Source of the DNA: a virus
Virus genome (UHGV): UHGV-1541059
DNA: 47,311 bases
Strand: one strand, 5' to 3'
Made by a program: the position numbers and the translations under genes. Position 1 is the stretch's first letter; each line of letters starts with the position of its first letter. This document shows, piece by piece, positions 2,461-17,021 of the stretch. Under the pieces are notes generated by a model. It was not told where the DNA came from. It saw nothing but the letters and a program-made list of their open reading frames with translations, and made no database searches.

Positions 2461-2889
2461 TTACCCCCAGCGTTTTATGAATTCCTCGTTTAATTTCGTA
2501 TCGCCAGACCATTGAACATCATGTTCAGCGCCGAACGAGTAGATCAGCTCGATTAGTTCACTGAATTCTGATTTACTCATCCGGCTGGTTGATGTCCCCA
2601 ATACAACAAAGCCGGATTTATCCAGGTTAGGGACGACGCCATATTTCTTAAGTCCGGCAGTGAATACCGCTTTCCAGTCTTCCGGAGACAGCTTTTTACC
2701 GTACCAATTAACCTGATCGCTAATGTCGGTTAACAGCGCCCAAAGCAACGCGTTTTGACTCAGCGAGCGGGTTTTCTCCTGGATGGTAATTATCAGCGGG
2801 CTTTTGCTATCAGGCTGGATCTCTCTTATCTGCCTGATAGCATTTTCTTTCACGGCGTCGTTTACTATCTCAAATCTAATTTGCCTCAT
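2461..2889 (-). CDS. ninB: NinB (Orf) recombination mediator
   Basis: Sequence pattern ...IQEKTRSLSQNALLWALLTDISDQVNWYGKKLSPEDWKAVFTAGLKK...VVPNL..GFVVLGTSTSRM matches the lambda NinB/Orf family as recalled. Confidence 0.78.
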   Translation of the reverse strand: MRQIRFEIVNDAVKENAIRQIREIQPDSKSPLIITIQEKTRSLSQNALLWALLTDISDQVNWYGKKLSPEDWKAVFTAGLKKYGVVPNLDKSGFVVLGTSTSRMSKSEFSELIELIYSFGAEHDVQWSGDTKLNEEFIKRWG

Positions 2890-3083
2890 AATACACCGTT
2901 GCTATTTTTCCATTGCGCCCGTGCGTACATAATCGCCTGCAAAGAAATTAGCCGCGAGCTTGTCATGAAAGCGCCTTTTAAATATTTCATGTCAACCGTG
3001 ACAGGTTTATCAGGATCATCGCCGCGCATGTATTCAGCAATAGTGCTTAAATCCTCCACGGTTAACTCCAAATCCTTGTTCAT
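2886..3083 (-). CDS. Hypothetical small protein (65 aa)
   Basis: Co-directional ORF, stop/start coupled to neighbours. Confidence 0.4.
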   Translation of the reverse strand: MNKDLELTVEDLSTIAEYMRGDDPDKPVTVDMKYLKGAFMTSSRLISLQAIMYARAQWKNSNGVL

Positions 3084-9260: not shown

Positions 9261-9303
9261 GTATACAAAATGGATTGACTCGATGTTTTACGGGGCGTAT
9301 ATT
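9261..9303 (+). promoter_or_regulatory. Strong sigma70 promoter (pL-like) with the 13-bp motif abutting the -35
   Basis: GTATACAAAATGG-a-TTGACT-17 bp-TATATT. Confidence 0.55.
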
Positions 9304-9651: not shown

Positions 9652-9942
9652 ATGAGCGTTACAATTATATATGGTAAATGTGATAGCAAAATGAATGCCA
9701 GGGAACGCAGAAGGATAAAAAGAGAAAACGAAAGAAAATCATCACCTGCAATCAATAAAACAGACAATGTGGATAAAGCTATTCGATTTGCAAACGAGGA
9801 AAGATGCAAACCAAATAGCATTAAAGAACGTCGCAAAGGATCAGTAAAATGGTATACGGAAAATGAAAGCGGCAGCTACTACCACGCAACGCAACCACGA
9901 CATTTAGGGGAAAAACCCCTGGATAAAGTCCGCTATCATTAA
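9652..9942 (+). CDS. N-like transcription antiterminator (P22 gene 24-like, arginine-rich motif)
   Basis: MSVTIIYGK...NARERRRIKRENERK resembles the P22 gp24 N-terminus and ARM; position after pL/nut. Confidence 0.55.
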   Translation: MSVTIIYGKCDSKMNARERRRIKRENERKSSPAINKTDNVDKAIRFANEERCKPNSIKERRKGSVKWYTENESGSYYHATQPRHLGEKPLDKVRYH

Positions 9943-9972: not shown

Positions 9973-10092
9973 ATGGTTATTCAGGCGCTTCAATTCAAAC
10001 TGGCAGTAGCGGAAATGCTTCACGATGCCGAAATGTGGAGCGCCGCGAATAAAGCCTTATACATAGTGTTAACAGCACGGGAGATTAAATAG
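9973..10092 (+). CDS. Hypothetical 39-aa protein
   Basis: GGAG RBS; stop overlaps the erf GTG start. Confidence 0.3.
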   Translation: MVIQALQFKLAVAEMLHDAEMWSAANKALYIVLTAREIK

Positions 10093-11158: not shown

Positions 11159-11443
11159 TTGGCGATGGGTGATTATTTAAAAGCACCGCCGCCGCCGCGA
11201 ACAAAAGAGCAAGTTTTAAGAGAAGCCCGTGATCAAATCGATCGCGGGCTTTTTTTATGCGGCACGGCAGCGGATCGAATGGCGAAAAGATTTAGTGACC
11301 TGTACGCAAAGCAAATATGGTTCGACAACTGGCAGGCAAGTTTTTACCCACTACAGAAAGCTGATGATATGCATTGGCCTGAATATGTCGATCCACGTAT
11401 GCGCAAATATCGCGGGCGTATGGGTCAGGTTATTAACGATTAA
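11159..11443 (+). CDS. Hypothetical protein (94 aa)
   Basis: Co-directional ORF. Confidence 0.45.
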   Translation: MAMGDYLKAPPPPRTKEQVLREARDQIDRGLFLCGTAADRMAKRFSDLYAKQIWFDNWQASFYPLQKADDMHWPEYVDPRMRKYRGRMGQVIND

Positions 11444-11457
11444 TGAGGTATTAAATC

Positions 11458-11682
11458 ATGATCGAAGATAAAGAAGTTGACGGAGAAATTCCTGACGGCG
11501 CTGATGAGCTTATCACTTTCGGCGGCGGGCTGTACGAATTCGAGACGTCTGCGGGCTGGGTTGATAAATGGCCTTTCCCTACTCGACAGGAATTAAGCGA
11601 ACGTAAATCATTCGGCGAAGATGCCGAACGGCTGGCTAATAACAAATGGCTTGATAAGTTCATTGCGGAGGGTGGCAAATGA
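11458..11682 (+). CDS. Hypothetical acidic protein (74 aa)
   Basis: Co-directional ORF. Confidence 0.45.
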   Translation: MIEDKEVDGEIPDGADELITFGGGLYEFETSAGWVDKWPFPTRQELSERKSFGEDAERLANNKWLDKFIAEGGK

Positions 11683-11786
11683 AAAAGATTGCAATGTTAT
11701 CCGCCGCCGTTGCTGTGGCGGCTGTTTACCTTAGTGCGTCACTCTATATCACTGTGGCGATTGTTAAGCTGATTACTGACATGTGA
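11679..11786 (+). CDS. Small membrane peptide (35 aa, MKKIAMLSAAVAVAAVYLSASLYITVAIVKLITDM)
   Basis: ATGA overlap with upstream stop; single hydrophobic helix. Confidence 0.35.
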   Translation: MKKIAMLSAAVAVAAVYLSASLYITVAIVKLITDM

Positions 11787-11793
11787 GGTTTAT

Positions 11794-11910
11794 ATGCGAG
11801 TCGACAAAAATACTGTCAAGGCTGTTTTCTGTGTGGTCGCTTTCGTCTTCATGGTGGTAATAGCTGGCGCGACTGCGGCAATTATTAGCTATATCGGCGG
11901 GGTGATGTGA
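11794..11910 (+). CDS. Small membrane peptide (38 aa, MRVDKNTVKAVFCVVAFVFMVVIAGATAAIISYIGGVM)
   Basis: Single hydrophobic helix; stop overlaps next gene start. Confidence 0.35.
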   Translation: MRVDKNTVKAVFCVVAFVFMVVIAGATAAIISYIGGVM

Positions 11911-12182
11911 TGCCATTCATGAATATCAAAACGGGTGATCTTGTTGTGCTCCCGGAATACCGTAAAGACCCTGGTCTGGTTGTGCTGAACAAGACATATA
12001 ACGATCTTGAGCGCCCGATCCTGGTTAAATATCTGGACGGAACAATTATAGAGCCGCGTTTCTTCGACAAGATTGAACTGAAGGCCCGCAATGTTCGCGT
12101 TAAGCCGTTCCGGGCTTATGTTGAAAACCACTGGCGGAAATTGTTCGCCGGACTGAATGGGATGTTCGGCGTATGGCTATAA
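11907..12182 (+). CDS. Hypothetical protein (91 aa)
   Basis: Co-directional ORF. Confidence 0.45.
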   Translation: MMPFMNIKTGDLVVLPEYRKDPGLVVLNKTYNDLERPILVKYLDGTIIEPRFFDKIELKARNVRVKPFRAYVENHWRKLFAGLNGMFGVWL

Positions 12183-12364
12183 AAGAAGTAAAGGTTAAAC
12201 ACCTGAAAGGTGGGGAGCGCTTAAAGGCGTGGTGGGGCCGTGAATTTACAGCCACTGCTTTCAGATTCAGGCAAGGCGGAGAGGTCATTATATACGACGA
12301 AAACATGGATGAAGTTGGTAAATGGCATCTTGAGCAATACGTCGAGGTGTTAAATGAAAATTAA
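12173..12364 (+). CDS. Hypothetical protein (63 aa)
   Basis: Co-directional ORF. Confidence 0.4.
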   Translation: MAIKEVKVKHLKGGERLKAWWGREFTATAFRFRQGGEVIIYDENMDEVGKWHLEQYVEVLNEN

Positions 12365-12686
12365 ATTCCATAAAGCATATGATAGCGAAACAAACAAGCT
12401 ATCACTATTTATCGAATTCGAACGCCGGATCGTGGTTGTGCCCTGGGCGCGGCGCTTCAATGACGCTGGCGGTCGGCGGCAATTCGCGGTCGATATGCTG
12501 TTACGCGGTTGCGGCCTTATGCGTCCGCTATCTGATTTAAAACGAATGATGCCAGGATCGTTCGGTCAGATTGATGAAATAGAAATAAGTCCGGAAGAAC
12601 TGAAACGGGAGCGTGATTTATTCCTTTCAAGCGAAGGAAACCCGTTTAATTCAGAAACAGAAATGAAATGGCATTACCCACTATAA
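12354..12686 (+). CDS. Hypothetical protein (110 aa)
   Basis: Co-directional ORF. Confidence 0.45.
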   Translation: MKIKFHKAYDSETNKLSLFIEFERRIVVVPWARRFNDAGGRRQFAVDMLLRGCGLMRPLSDLKRMMPGSFGQIDEIEISPEELKRERDLFLSSEGNPFNSETEMKWHYPL

Positions 12687-12699
12687 AAGGATAAATATC

Positions 12700-13320
12700 A
12701 TGAACGACATCAAAACAGCTTACTCTCTCGGTAATGAAGGCATGTTAATCACTCGCTATACAGATGATGCAAACTTTCACGAAGTGGAAATTAAAGATTA
12801 TCACGAAGTATTGAAAGATATGGAAGCTGGCGCGTATGACGCTGATTTGAATCTGGCGCTACAGGTTGTTGATATTGTGATGGGTGCGTCAATCCGCGAT
12901 TACGTGTCTTTAAGTATGGAAGAAAAAACATCGGTAGCGCGTTATGTATTCTCTCTTACTTTTGTGAAGCGCATGGAGGAAGAATTCGGACGCGTACCAG
13001 TGCCGGAAGAGGTTGATCCGCTCGCGTTCGGAAGTGCTGTTATTCTCCCGTTGAACAAGGATCAGTTTGGTAGTGTTTCACTGCATTCTATGCGCGGCCT
13101 GATGAAAAACATCTTTGAAGTTAAGATGTTGCAGAAATGCATTGAGGAAGGCCACAAAGAAGAAGAAGTAAAAGCGTTTATGCCGCTGTTTTACGGTGAA
13201 ATGGTTGGCAATGATATGCGCGCAAATGATTTCGGTGTGCAGGCGGCTATCGCTGTGCTTAATGATGCACGGAAAAACGCACAGCCGATGCCTGAACAGG
13301 AAAAACGTGTACTGCATTAA
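12700..13320 (+). CDS. Hypothetical protein (206 aa)
   Basis: Largest unknown ORF of the early accessory block. Confidence 0.5.
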   Translation: MNDIKTAYSLGNEGMLITRYTDDANFHEVEIKDYHEVLKDMEAGAYDADLNLALQVVDIVMGASIRDYVSLSMEEKTSVARYVFSLTFVKRMEEEFGRVPVPEEVDPLAFGSAVILPLNKDQFGSVSLHSMRGLMKNIFEVKMLQKCIEEGHKEEEVKAFMPLFYGEMVGNDMRANDFGVQAAIAVLNDARKNAQPMPEQEKRVLH

Positions 13321-13418
13321 CCGAGTGATTCCGATTACATAAATATACATTATGTATTGTGATCGCATATCCGTTTTGTAAGCCAAAATCAAAAGGTTTA
13401 CGGTGCGGAGGAAGCAAA

Positions 13419-13637
13419 ATGGAACGCGAATTGATGCTTTATTGCGTAGAAGGTGGCGTAGGTCACGATGCCTACGTCGCTGGGAAAGGCTATCCAGCCG
13501 ATGAAGTGCTTTCTAATATGCACTTCAGAGAAAATGAAAGCCAGGTGTCTGTGTGGAAACGGTGCATTGATGGTATTGAGGTTGTAAGTATAGAACGGTA
13601 TTTAGGCACGTTTGATTACGGTGTTATTGAGGCTTAA
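13419..13637 (+). CDS. Hypothetical protein (72 aa)
   Basis: Start set at MERELM with GGAGG RBS (track ORF starts 13359). Confidence 0.45.
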   Translation: MERELMLYCVEGGVGHDAYVAGKGYPADEVLSNMHFRENESQVSVWKRCIDGIEVVSIERYLGTFDYGVIEA

Positions 13638-13735
13638 TTATGGACGATACATTGTTTTATATGTGCTGTTGCTGGGGTTTTATTGCCTTATGCCTGTTTA
13701 TCAGGTGGTTTATTGAATACCATATGAGGTGATCT

Positions 13736-13927
13736 ATGAAAAAGGTTGGCGAATACATGATACCGGATAACGCTAAATTAGCCGGAATCGGTCAATTTGG
13801 TTGTTATTACTATAACTGCGTTGGTGATATTTATCAGGTCAGTATTGTTGGTGGTGTACAGCATTTTCGTCTTATGCACTTTGAATTGAGCGCACTTAAA
13901 AAGGCGGTGTTAATGTATGAAGTTTAA
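13736..13927 (+). CDS. Hypothetical protein (63 aa)
   Basis: Co-directional ORF. Confidence 0.4.
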   Translation: MKKVGEYMIPDNAKLAGIGQFGCYYYNCVGDIYQVSIVGGVQHFRLMHFELSALKKAVLMYEV

Positions 13928-14120
13928 ACACTATAGGGAATGGAAGATTCCAGAATCAGCAACAAAGGCAGCGCCCGGAAATGTTTCCGGCGTTTATTTT
14001 TATATGGAAGGTAAATGGTATTTCGGCAGCAGGCCGGATCACTATTATCAGGAAATGTGTGATTCTCATGTACTTGATATAAAATTTCGCGTGCAAGGCG
14101 GTGTGATTGAGGACGTTTAG
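13917..14120 (+). CDS. Hypothetical protein (67 aa)
   Basis: Co-directional ORF. Confidence 0.4.
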   Translation: MKFKHYREWKIPESATKAAPGNVSGVYFYMEGKWYFGSRPDHYYQEMCDSHVLDIKFRVQGGVIEDV

Positions 14121-14121
14121 A

Positions 14122-14349
14122 ATGATGCGTGCACTTATTGACTTCATTATGGGCTGGCTATTTTGTTCTTTTTTTGTATTCTCATGCATAGCTACGGTTC
14201 TTATTGGAATTTTATGCGGTGTGTCTTTTGTTACATGGGAACTACCAGAAATGCCATCACCTGATGATGCGCTTTATATGTTAAGGATCATTATTGCTGT
14301 TAGTGTATTTGTTGGGTTCTTTTTCGCTGATTTTACTGATTATTTATGA
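14122..14349 (+). CDS. Small membrane protein (75 aa, two predicted TM helices)
   Basis: MMRALIDFIMGWLFCSFFVFSCIATVLIGILCGVSFV...; start at ATG 14122. Confidence 0.45.
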   Translation: MMRALIDFIMGWLFCSFFVFSCIATVLIGILCGVSFVTWELPEMPSPDDALYMLRIIIAVSVFVGFFFADFTDYL

Positions 14350-14350
14350 A

Positions 14351-14584
14351 ATGGCTTTATTTAACCTGTCAGAGCCGCAATTTAACGCCGTAAAAGCTGC
14401 CGCCCGCGCAGCGCTTTCTGCCTGCAAAGCGGAGGTGGAGAAAAACGGCTACAGCGATAAAGCTACGCGGCTGATATTAGAAAAGCATTATCGCAAGGTC
14501 GCCCCGCTAATCAGTATTGAGCGTTTTGTGTGGTTGGTGGGGTATCTAAATAACCGCTGGGGGACTGATCAGGATTATTTCTAA
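14351..14584 (+). CDS. Hypothetical protein (77 aa)
   Basis: Start at MALFNLSEPQF immediately after upstream stop. Confidence 0.4.
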   Translation: MALFNLSEPQFNAVKAAARAALSACKAEVEKNGYSDKATRLILEKHYRKVAPLISIERFVWLVGYLNNRWGTDQDYF

Positions 14585-16863: not shown

Positions 16864-16944
16864 GTTTACAAAATGGCGTCATTGTGTGATGAATGTCACA
16901 TAATGGCGCTTTGCACCTTGTTAGCACGTATCCATTTTGTATAC
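16864..16944. promoter_or_regulatory. Control region upstream of ninF/ninG: inverted pair of the 13-bp motif flanking a CRP-like palindrome
   Basis: GTTTACAAAATGG (16864-16876), TGTGATGAATGTCACA (16885-16900), reverse-complement motif CCATTTTGTATAC (16932-16944). Confidence 0.4.
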
Positions 16945-17021
16945 TTCAAGCAAACAAAATGCTCTTTAAAAATCCGGCAGCGCTGAAATGCGTAGAAATC
17001 ACCTGAAAAGGAGAGAGCATT

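What the first reader, a model, noticed from the sequence alone, without database searches (positions are those of the whole stretch)
11159..14584. About 3.4 kb of 14 small unknown genes between ssb and dam, including three mini membrane or Cys-rich peptides
The segment downstream of erf-ssb carries uncharacterised genes, with 35-aa and 38-aa single-TM peptides at 11679-11786 and 11794-11910 and a 25-aa Cys-rich peptide at 13639-13716 (MDDTLFYMCCCWGFYCLMPVYQVVY). This is the equivalent of the early-expressed region where lambdoid phages keep host-takeover and anti-defence functions; none matches a family I recognise.
Basis: partly seen in the sequence, partly recalled or inferred. Interest (0 to 1): 0.5.

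Follow-up and report, generated by a model that had tools for sequence, protein, structure and literature searches.

The report
Early-operon small-gene block of mEp021-like prophage
The 3.4 kb segment is a real, tightly packed block of 14 small phage genes, kept in every relative of the recently described mEp021 group of E. coli phages; two of them already have names (an Abc2-type RecBCD modifier and the haemolysis-inducing Ipe protein), so it is mostly ordinary, though most functions remain unknown.

Summary
The window is an mEp021-like (mEpimmI group) E. coli prophage. It is 99.7% identical to the E. coli GF66.2 chromosome and 84-96% identical to the published phages MagusPhagus and mEp010-mEp554.

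What holds up:
- The 14 plus-strand ORFs between ssb and dam are real. All 14 occur in 40 of 40 distinct related loci.
- All are under purifying selection in their own frame (dN/dS 0.06-0.48) and not in the other frames.
- The 35-aa and 38-aa membrane peptides are confirmed at the stated coordinates.

What does not hold up:
- The "25-aa Cys-rich peptide" is a frameshifted misreading. The real ORF is 30 aa (13640-13732, MDDTLFYMCCCWGFIALCLFIRWFIEYHMR).
- "No recognisable family" is wrong for three genes:
  - g1 is Abc2-like (anti-RecBCD).
  - g14 is 96% identical to mEp021 Ipe, which has been characterised experimentally.
  - g12 is DUF7274.

The other genes are narrow, phage-restricted families. 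Both AlphaFold models failed. The public "toxin" label on g5 has no support from any profile library I searched.

New details:
- mEp021 terminator t2, reported as experimentally demonstrated, lies inside the 35-aa ORF.
- A second terminator-like hairpin, supported by one covarying base pair, lies inside g12.
- The only intergenic gap (13321-13418) is a conserved, structured leader that covers the start of the g9 ribosome-binding site.

Verdict: a new member of a known kind, of modest interest.

The parts
11165..11443 (+). g1, 92 aa, Abc2-like RecBCD modifier
   Evidence: phrog_656 'abc2 anti-RecBCD' E 2.3e-31. 38% identity over 81 aa to JEP4 'anti-RecBCD 2' and 51% over the C-terminal 37 aa to Sf6 Abc2, with a shared PEY[VI]DPR[ML]RxYRxRxG..ND tail. 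Pfam PF11043 scores only 15.2 bits, below the 25-bit cut-off. dN/dS 0.17.
11458..11682 (+). g2, 74 aa, acidic (net -9); weak DUF2737 relative
   Evidence: phrog_28542 E 3e-49 and phrog_4684 E 1e-5. Pfam DUF2737 scores 13 bits, below cut-off. 39% identity over 36 aa to Sf6 gp23, a DUF2737 protein. An allele is named DUF2737 by PGAP. dN/dS 0.19.
11679..11786 (+). g3, 35-aa single-pass membrane peptide; its start overlaps the g2 stop (ATGA)
   Evidence: ORF intact in 35/39 relatives. Variable columns by codon position are 21/16/32, and dN/dS is 0.18 against 1.0 and 1.45 in the other frames. GGAGGG lies 8 nt upstream. Hydropathy 2.19. Not annotated by PGAP. Called as a gene on about 420 contigs by other pipelines.
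11703..11732 (+). Terminator-like hairpin GCCGCCGTTGCTGTGGCGGC plus TGTTTACCTT inside g3; positional equivalent of mEp021 TERM_2 (t2)
   Evidence: Found by the scan tool. mEp021 TERM_2 (L002 3530-3546, GCCGCATTGCTTGCGGC) covers codons 7-12 of the g3 orthologue. t2 is listed as experimentally demonstrated in PMC11893012 Fig. 7 legend. A hairpin with a T-rich tail is present in 31/40 relatives.
11794..11910 (+). g4, 38-aa single-pass membrane peptide
   Evidence: Intact in 33/39 relatives. dN/dS 0.34 against 0.76 and 1.02 in the other frames. Alleles range from 44 to 100% identity but all are hydrophobic with a basic N-terminus. Hydropathy 2.76.
11910..12182 (+). g5, 90 aa, basic; labelled 'toxin-antitoxin system toxin subunit' in RefSeq
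   Evidence: Conserved ATG at 11910 overlaps the g4 stop. phrog_28396, function unknown. No Pfam, NCBIfam or PADLOC hit. Only 46 close homologues, all from E. coli prophages or metagenomes. AlphaFold pLDDT 43. dN/dS 0.19.
12173..12364 (+). g6, 63 aa, unknown
   Evidence: phrog_34199 E 6e-31. dN/dS 0.16. Overlaps g5 by 10 nt.
12354..12686 (+). g7, 110 aa, unknown, strongly conserved
   Evidence: phrog_34371 E 1e-75. dN/dS 0.10. No PDB sequence match.
12700..13320 (+). g8, 206 aa, acidic (net -13), unknown; narrow family
   Evidence: phrog_1515 E 1e-59. Only 5 representatives at 50% identity among 1.8 billion proteins. In GenBank phages it occurs only in the mEp group. AlphaFold pLDDT 48.8. dN/dS 0.17.
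13321..13418 (+). Conserved non-coding leader of g9: two hairpins, the second covering the start of the g9 Shine-Dalgarno sequence
   Evidence: Pairwise identity 0.85-0.90, although flanking genes have pS 0.3-0.5. MFE -29.2 kcal/mol with z -3.7 in the window, and -33.5 with z -4.3 in mEp021. 27 consensus pairs with 98% of cells paired, but covariation is not significant. About 65 nt are paralogous to the spacer upstream of the boxA-like site near 16960.
13419..13637 (+). g9, 72 aa, acidic, unknown
   Evidence: phrog_28996 E 5e-54. Intact in 37/39 relatives from ATG 13419. The GTG 13359 extension is not conserved. dN/dS 0.15.
   Evidence: Restricted to mEp-group phages by tblastn. A divergent copy that keeps the CCWG and RWxIE motifs is present in the most distant relative, L047.
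13736..13927 (+). g11, 63 aa, unknown, several divergent alleles
   Evidence: phrog_37004 E 3e-9. Alleles range from 37 to 100% identity. dN/dS 0.27. Weak similarity to g12 (E 0.009 in a single comparison).
13917..14120 (+). g12, 67 aa, DUF7274
   Evidence: Pfam PF23939 scores 33.5 bits, above the 24.5-bit cut-off, E 3.8e-8. phrog_36823. dN/dS 0.13.
13975..14000 (+). Terminator-like hairpin CCGGAAATGTTTCCGG plus CGTTTATTTT inside g12; positional equivalent of mEp021 TERM_3 (t3, predicted)
   Evidence: Present in 40/40 relatives. One stem pair varies as AU 7, CG 6, GU 1, UG 1, at two four-fold degenerate codon positions. Covariation score is 0.138 against 0.055 +/- 0.019, reached by 0/500 shuffles.
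14122..14349 (+). g13, 75 aa, two hydrophobic segments, fast-evolving (named 'cell division protein FtsK' by PGAP in some genomes)
   Evidence: phrog_14059 E 5e-14. Hydropathy 2.56. Alleles range from 27 to 100% identity, dN/dS 0.48. The PGAP name appears; it is a 75-78-aa protein, far shorter than FtsK.
14351..14584 (+). g14, 77 aa, orthologue of mEp021 Ipe ('inducer of pleiotropic effects')
   Evidence: 96% identical to mEp021_29. phrog_303 E 2.7e-24. dN/dS 0.06. 35-48% identical homologues in about 290 records, mostly Drexlerviridae (T1-like phages). The 77-aa ORF-4.3 is the active form (PMC6379469).

Best explanation
The segment is the conserved middle part of the rightward early operon of an mEp021-like (mEpimmI) temperate phage integrated in E. 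coli.

What it contains:
- 14 real protein-coding genes. They are packed with overlapping or near-touching stop and start codons, and lie between the recombination genes (erf, ssb) and the methyltransferase genes (dam, dcm).
- The first gene is an Abc2-type protein. By homology it would bind and retune host RecBCD so that the phage Erf pathway can work.
- The last gene is Ipe. In mEp021, overexpressed Ipe causes haemolysis through HlyE-containing vesicles, shape changes and cell death.
- Four products (g3, g4, g10, g13) are small inner-membrane proteins.
- The other eight (g2, g5, g6, g7, g8, g9, g11, g12) are small soluble proteins. Apart from the DUF7274 domain in g12, they belong to families seen almost only in this phage group.

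How it is probably expressed:
- Transcription most likely starts at the early promoter near 9275.
- It must pass two intrinsic-terminator hairpins embedded in coding sequence: t2 inside g3 and t3 inside g12.
- It does so with the help of the N-like Gp17 protein and host Nus factors. This makes g3-g14 delayed-early genes.

Status of each step:
- Shown here: the genes are real, conserved and selected; g1, g12 and g14 have family assignments; the hairpins and the structured g9 leader are present.
- Taken from the literature on mEp021: Gp17 antitermination, t2 activity and the Ipe phenotypes.
- Inferred only: that the membrane peptides and the other small proteins act on host envelope or host takeover.
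For: Identity of the element:
- 99.7% identical to an E. coli chromosome and 84-96% to mEp-group phages.

Coding status:
- 14/14 genes are present in 40/40 loci.
- dN/dS is 0.06-0.48 in frame and about 1 or more out of frame.
- ORFs are intact in most relatives.
- Shine-Dalgarno motifs and ATGA/TGATG overlaps are present.

Family assignments:
- Abc2.
- Ipe.
- DUF7274.

Synteny with P22-like phages:
- Sf6 has kil, erf, ssb, abc2, DUF2737, then ea genes.
- S9-5 has ssb, abc2-like, dam, dcm.

Regulation:
- N-like gene at 9652-9942.
- Promoter-like TTGACT-17-TATATT at 9275-9303, and the hairpins at 11703 and 13975.
- GenBank TERM_2 and TERM_3 positions in mEp021.
- Gp17 antitermination, with t2 experimentally demonstrated and t3 predicted (PMC11893012).
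- The t3 hairpin is conserved 40/40 with a covarying pair.
Against: - No transcript or protein data for this prophage were available, so expression is inferred.
- That GenBank TERM_2 equals the paper's t2 is my reading of the numbering. The primary paper (Arch Virol 168:92) could not be read.
- Nine of 40 relatives lack a T-rich tail after the g3 hairpin, so t2 may not work in all of them.
- g1 fails the Pfam Abc2 threshold.
- No function could be assigned to g2-g11 or g13: both structure models were unusable and there were no PDB sequence matches.
- A block kept in every relative could serve a core phage function (for example replication or regulation) rather than host takeover.
Confidence: 0.72

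Rival explanations
1. The three mini-ORFs (g3, g4, g10) are not genes. Their conservation reflects overlapping RNA or DNA signals, such as terminator t2, and the ORFs are incidental.
For: - RefSeq/PGAP never annotates them.
- The mEp021 GenBank record places a terminator where g3 lies.
- g3 carries a GC-rich hairpin in most relatives.
- No family library knows these peptides.
Against: - dN/dS is 0.18, 0.34 and 0.15 in frame, against about 0.8-2.2 out of frame.
- Variation is biased to third codon positions along the whole ORFs, including the parts of g3 outside the hairpin.
- The ORFs are intact in 35, 33 and 37 of 39 relatives.
- Divergent alleles keep the pattern of a basic N-terminus followed by a hydrophobic helix.
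- Each has a Shine-Dalgarno motif and is coupled to its neighbours.
- A 50%-identical g10 copy keeps the CCWG and RWxIE motifs.
Confidence: 0.07
2. The block is a variable anti-defence or moron island. Individual genes would be exchangeable cargo that counter specific host immune systems.
For: - It lies next to abc2 in the early operon, as the ea regions of P22-like phages do.
- g4, g11 and g13 occur as strongly divergent alleles shuffled among relatives.
- Some relatives carry homing-endonuclease and extra-ORF insertions here.
- The gene families are narrow.
Against: - All 14 genes are present in the same order in 40/40 loci, unlike typical accessory islands.
- Most genes are under strong purifying selection.
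- No hit to any defence-related model. PADLOC models defence systems rather than anti-defence proteins, so this test is weak.
Confidence: 0.15
3. g5, perhaps together with g6, is a toxin-antitoxin module, as the RefSeq product name 'toxin-antitoxin system toxin subunit' implies.
For: - The name is carried by hundreds of RefSeq and GenBank entries.
- g5 is small and basic, and g6 overlaps it by 10 nt.
Against: - No Pfam, NCBIfam or PADLOC family matches g5 or g6, even at relaxed thresholds.
- A profile of 17 homologues finds no solved toxin structure.
- The structure model is unusable.
- g5 is translationally coupled to g4 inside a long operon and has no promoter of its own.
Confidence: 0.08

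Closest known systems
mEp021 genes gp21-gp29 (MH706966) and the same block in mEp010, mEp013, mEp044, mEp515, mEp554 and MagusPhagus
   Same: Orthologous and syntenic, at 84-96% nucleotide identity. It includes the putative anti-RecBCD gene (gp21), the 'toxin-antitoxin subunit' (gp23) and ipe (gp29).
   Different: The 2018 mEp021 record leaves g3, g4, g6, g10 and g12 unannotated and places terminators where g3 and g12 lie. mEp021 also carries an extra 174-aa ORF with an HNH motif between ssb and gp21, which the window lacks.
The region from abc2 to the ea genes in the PL operon of P22-like phages (Sf6, JEP4, S9-5)
   Same: The order is the same: kil, erf, ssb, abc2, DUF2737, then small early genes read by N-type antitermination. 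g1 and g2 are sequence relatives of Abc2 and DUF2737.
   Different: g3-g13 have no counterparts there. In S9-5, abc2 is followed directly by dam and dcm. The P22-like ea regions differ in gene content between the phages examined, whereas this block is fixed across the mEp group.
Ipe-like proteins (phrog_303) of Drexlerviridae (T1-like virulent phages)
   Same: Full-length 35-48% identity. They likewise sit in an array of small early genes.
   Different: In the T1-like phages the gene lies upstream of the small terminase gene, not next to dam. No phenotype has been reported for those homologues.
Type I toxins and other small hydrophobic peptides of E. coli (Hok, Ldr, TisB, Ibs; comparison from my own knowledge)
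   Same: 30-38 aa, a single hydrophobic helix and charged termini.
   Different: No sequence similarity was found. The peptides are translationally coupled inside a long operon rather than transcribed alone with an antisense RNA. Toxicity is untested.

Membership tests
Abc2 (P22 anti-RecBCD protein 2; Pfam PF11043, phrog_656), for g1 | Significant match to the family profile | tested here: inconclusive
   PHROG profile E 2.3e-31 over the full length. The Pfam model gives only 15.2 bits against a 25-bit cut-off, and only for the C-terminus.
Abc2, for g1 | Conserved C-terminal motif and pairwise similarity to annotated Abc2 proteins | tested here: met
   38% identity over 81 aa to JEP4 Abc2. 51% over 37 aa to Sf6 Abc2, sharing PEY[VI]DPR[ML]RxYRxRxG..ND.
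Abc2, for g1 | Located beside erf and ssb in the early recombination module | tested here: met
Abc2, for g1 | Binds RecC and alters RecBCD activity | not testable with these tools
   Needs biochemistry or genetics.
Ipe (mEp021 gp29), for g14 | Orthology to the 77-aa active form (ORF-4.3) | tested here: met
   96% identity, same length, same position directly upstream of dam.
Ipe, for g14 | Overexpression causes HlyE-vesicle haemolysis and cell death | not testable with these tools
   Phenotype reported for mEp021 (Martinez-Penafiel 2012, cited in PMC11893012 and PMC6379469).
DUF7274 (PF23939), for g12 | Score above the Pfam gathering threshold | tested here: met
   33.5 bits against 24.5.
DUF2737 (PF10930), for g2 | Score above the Pfam gathering threshold | tested here: not met
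   13 bits against 25. There is only a 36-aa, 39% similarity to Sf6 gp23.
Type II toxin-antitoxin toxin, for g5 (public label) | Match to any toxin family profile or solved toxin structure | tested here: not met
   No Pfam, NCBIfam, PADLOC or PDB match.
Type II toxin-antitoxin toxin, for g5 | Recognisable cognate antitoxin with a DNA-binding domain next to it | tested here: not met
   Neighbours g4 and g6 have no such domain.
Type I toxin peptides, for g3, g4 and g10 | Stand-alone gene with its own promoter and an overlapping antisense RNA | tested here: not met
   Start codons overlap or abut the neighbouring genes. No Rfam antitoxin RNA in the window. No antisense promoter-like site overlaps them.
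Intrinsic terminators t2 and t3 of the mEp021 early operon | GC-rich hairpin followed by a T-rich tail at the orthologous position | tested here: met
   Window 11703-11732 and 13975-14000. Orthologous to TERM_2 and TERM_3. t3 has a covarying pair.
Intrinsic terminators t2 and t3 | Termination activity and read-through by Gp17 | not testable with these tools
   t2 is reported as demonstrated and t3 as predicted, for mEp021 only.
Variable early accessory ('ea' or moron) island | Gene content differs between related phages | tested here: not met
   All 14 genes are present in 40/40 loci. Only alleles differ, and insertions are rare.

The most novel reading that the evidence does not exclude
The block could be a regulated envelope-remodelling module.
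- Four conserved small inner-membrane proteins (g3, g4, g10, g13), ignored by standard annotation, would act together with Ipe on the host envelope (vesiculation, permeability or exclusion).
- Expression would be gated in an unusual way: terminators t2 and t3 sit inside translated ORFs, so ribosomes reading g3 and g12 would decide whether the hairpins can form.
- The conserved g9 leader would be a translational switch that hides the ribosome-binding site.
Probability: 0.1. Interest if true: 0.55.

Novelty: new member of a known kind. Interest (0 to 1): 0.3.

Why it matters
- mEp021-like phages are reported to be as common as lambdoid phages in the human-faeces isolate collection in which they were found (PMC11893012). 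Yet 11 of these 14 universally conserved early genes still have no family or function beyond an uncharacterised PHROG cluster.
- Three mini-proteins are missing from RefSeq annotation, although selection clearly maintains them.
- Corrected gene starts, the true 30-aa peptide, the unsupported 'toxin' and 'FtsK' labels and the positions of the embedded terminators give a clean map for deletion and expression screens.
- The payoff is incremental. It would not change how phage early regions are understood.

Tried and rejected
- AlphaFold2 of g8 (17-sequence alignment) gave pLDDT 48.8, and of g5 gave pLDDT 43.2. Both are too poor for fold searches, so none were run.
- An exhaustive HMMER search with g8 found only 5 representatives, so no deeper profile could be built.
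- Word-based homologue searches for g5 and Ipe returned only close relatives.
- PDB sequence searches for g1, g5, g7, g8, g12 and Ipe gave nothing significant. The best was the Ipe profile against the ribbon-helix-helix N-terminus of FitA, at E 0.18, kept only as a weak lead.
- Pfam, NCBIfam and PADLOC gave nothing for g3-g11 or g13, and nothing above a curated cut-off for g1 and g2.
- Rfam gave no hit in the window.
- tblastn with g3 was blanked by the low-complexity filter.
- The primary papers on Gp17 and on Ipe are not in the library. The supplements of the 2025 paper do not mention these genes.
- I first thought g10 was replaced by an unrelated peptide in two distant relatives. This was wrong: they carry an insertion and keep a divergent g10.
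- A sigma-70 promoter in the g8-g9 spacer was considered. The substitutions in its putative -10 element are those that preserve RNA pairing, so I favour an RNA element, without proof.

Full report
**What the window is.** The 3.4 kb segment matches the E. coli GF66.2 chromosome at 99.7% and phage MagusPhagus at 96%. It matches the Mexican coliphages mEp010, mEp013, mEp021, mEp044, mEp515 and mEp554 at 84-87%. These belong to the Nus-dependent, non-lambdoid mEpimmI group, described in 2025 as a new branch of tailed phages (PMC11893012). Public annotation of the neighbourhood, all on the plus strand, reads as follows:
- a LexA/CI-type repressor
- an N-like antiterminator (Gp17)
- a short Kil-like ORF
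- erf and ssb
- the block in question
- dam, a DUF6378 gene, a membrane-protein gene, dcm and ninG

**Check of the observation.** The ORF list shows 14 plus-strand ORFs between ssb and dam.

The third peptide is a reading error. The ORF that starts at ATG 13640 reads MDDTLFYMCCCWGFIALCLFIRWFIEYHMR (30 aa, ending at 13732).

Several starts also need correcting, judged by conservation in relatives. g5 begins at ATG 11910, overlapping the g4 stop as TGATG. g9 begins at ATG 13419, and the GTG 13359 extension is intact in none of 39 relatives.

**Are the ORFs genes?** I fetched 46 related loci from IMG/VR using g8 as bait and cut out the ssb-to-dam stretch. With the window and the annotated loci L001-L002 this gave 40 distinct sequences, which I aligned.
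- All 14 genes are present in all 40 sequences.
- Pooled Nei-Gojobori dN/dS in the annotated frame runs from 0.06 (g14) to 0.48 (g13). The controls dam and ssb give 0.06 and 0.11. The same stretches read in the other two frames give about 0.75 to 5.9.
- The three mini-ORFs behave like the rest:

| ORF | dN/dS | Intact in relatives |
|---|---|---|
| g3 | 0.18 | 35/39 |
| g4 | 0.34 | 33/39 |
| g10 | 0.15 | 37/39 |

- Divergent alleles of g3 and g4 keep a basic N-terminus followed by one long hydrophobic stretch.
- The most distant relative keeps a g10 copy that shares only the CCWG and RWxIE motifs.
- Each mini-ORF has a Shine-Dalgarno motif and abuts or overlaps its neighbour.
- RefSeq never annotates them. 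Other pipelines do, on about 420 contigs each.

**Gene-by-gene annotation.**
- g1 matches the PHROG family 'abc2 anti-RecBCD' at E 2e-31. It is 38% identical over 81 residues to the Abc2 of phage JEP4 and shares the C-terminal PEY[VI]DPR[ML]RxYRxRxG..ND tail with Sf6 Abc2. It falls below the Pfam threshold.
- g2 is a weak relative of DUF2737.
- g12 passes the Pfam threshold for DUF7274.
- g14 is 96% identical to mEp021 Ipe. The 77-aa form of Ipe induces haemolysis through HlyE-containing vesicles, shape changes and cell death when overexpressed (Martinez-Penafiel 2012, as summarised in PMC11893012 and PMC6379469).
- Ipe relatives at 35-48% identity occur in about 290 phage records, mostly T1-like Drexlerviridae, again within arrays of small early genes.
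- g5 carries the RefSeq name 'toxin-antitoxin system toxin subunit'. No Pfam, NCBIfam, PADLOC or PDB search supports that name.
- g13 is called 'cell division protein FtsK' in some genomes, but it is a 75-78-aa protein with two hydrophobic segments.
- g6, g7, g8, g9 and g11 match only uncharacterised PHROG families.
- g8, the largest gene, has just five representatives at 50% identity among 1.8 billion proteins.

**Regulatory anatomy.** In mEp021, Gp17 with host Nus factors antiterminates early transcription. Terminators t1, t2 and t5 are reported as experimentally demonstrated, and t3 and t4 as predicted (PMC11893012 section 3.5).
- The GenBank feature TERM_2 of mEp021 (GCCGCATTGCTTGCGGC) covers codons 7-12 of the unannotated g3 orthologue.
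- The window has a hairpin in the same place (11703-11722, then TGTTTACCTT). A hairpin with a T-rich tail is present in 31 of 40 relatives.
- TERM_3 falls inside g12. Its hairpin is present in 40 of 40 relatives.
- One stem pair of that hairpin switches among A-U, C-G, G-U and U-G at two four-fold degenerate codon positions. No shuffle out of 500 reaches the observed covariation score.
- So both terminators are embedded in translated sequence. That TERM_2 is the paper's t2 is my inference from the numbering.

**The g8-g9 spacer.** The only real gap, 13321-13418, is as conserved as the coding sequence around it (0.85-0.90 pairwise identity, against synonymous divergence of 0.3-0.5 in the flanking genes).
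- It folds far better than shuffled controls (z -3.7 and -4.3).
- It forms two hairpins, and the second pairs with the first bases of the g9 Shine-Dalgarno sequence.
- Nearly all substitutions are wobble-compatible, but formal covariation is not significant.
- About 65 nt of this spacer recur upstream of the boxA-like TGCTCTTTAA at 16960.

**Comparison with known systems.**
- The P22-like phage Sf6 has kil, erf, ssb, abc2, DUF2737 and then 'ea' genes. Phage S9-5 has ssb, an abc2-like gene, and then dam and dcm directly.
- Unlike typical accessory regions, its gene content is fixed across the group.
- Only g4, g11 and g13 show strongly divergent, shuffled alleles. Rare insertions of ORFs with HNH motifs and of extra small membrane ORFs occur.

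**Most likely mechanism.** This is a delayed-early operon segment. Its products probably prepare the host for phage recombination and replication (Abc2 alongside Erf and Ssb) and act on the envelope (Ipe plus four small membrane proteins). The first part rests on homology and the second on the published Ipe phenotype. The roles of the remaining genes are inference only.

**What failed.**
- Remote-homology searches found nothing beyond the phage group.

**Verdict.** The feature is real, and its description needs correcting as set out above. It is a new member of a known kind and of modest interest. The embedded terminators, the structured g9 leader and the unannotated but selected mini-proteins are the points worth an experiment.

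Noticed in passing
window 13321-13418 and 16868-16960: The g8-g9 spacer and the spacer between dcm and the boxA-like TGCTCTTTAA (16960) share about 65 nt (GTGAT..TCACATAA ... TTGT[GT]A-N16-TA[AT]AC). The 13-mer TATCCRTTTTGTA is exact at 13368 and 16929, and has one mismatch at 9264(-), next to the early promoter. There are 19 hits at up to 2 mismatches, against 3.2 +/- 1.8 in shuffles. Whether this is a promoter/operator family or an RNA element is unresolved.
   Followed up: partly
window 11679-11786 (g3) and 13917-14120 (g12): Both intrinsic-terminator hairpins of this operon segment lie inside translated ORFs. Translation might therefore influence termination. This idea is untested.
   Followed up: partly
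L002 (mEp021) 2487-3011: An unannotated 174-aa ORF with a C-terminal HNH-type motif ([25 protein letters not shown]) fills the roughly 540-nt gap between ssb and the abc2-like gene in mEp021. The window lacks it. It looks like a homing-endonuclease insertion.
   Followed up: no
L047 4721-5710 (L045 has matching insertions at both sites): The most divergent relatives carry an extra 60-aa membrane ORF before g9. Between g9 and g10 they also carry an extra hydrophobic peptide reading frame (MWLIDLILACWLIVLVGFVGYFAWEEGKHNGRY) and an ORF with an HNH-like motif. The block tolerates insertions at these two junctions.
   Followed up: partly
window 9973-10092: A 39-aa ORF between the N-like gene and erf matches phrog_34942 (E 7e-31), and weakly matches the Kil septation-inhibitor family (E 0.0014). 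This is another small early gene outside the finding.
   Followed up: no
window 14351-14584 (g14, Ipe): A profile of Ipe homologues gives a weak, non-significant match (E 0.18) to the ribbon-helix-helix N-terminus of the FitA antitoxin (NLSEAxxNAxKxxA). If real, Ipe could be a DNA-binding protein.
   Followed up: partly
window 14122-14349 (g13) and 11910-12182 (g5): The RefSeq product names 'cell division protein FtsK' (a 75-78-aa protein with two hydrophobic segments) and 'toxin-antitoxin system toxin subunit' appear to be propagated labels. No family model supports them.
   Followed up: yes
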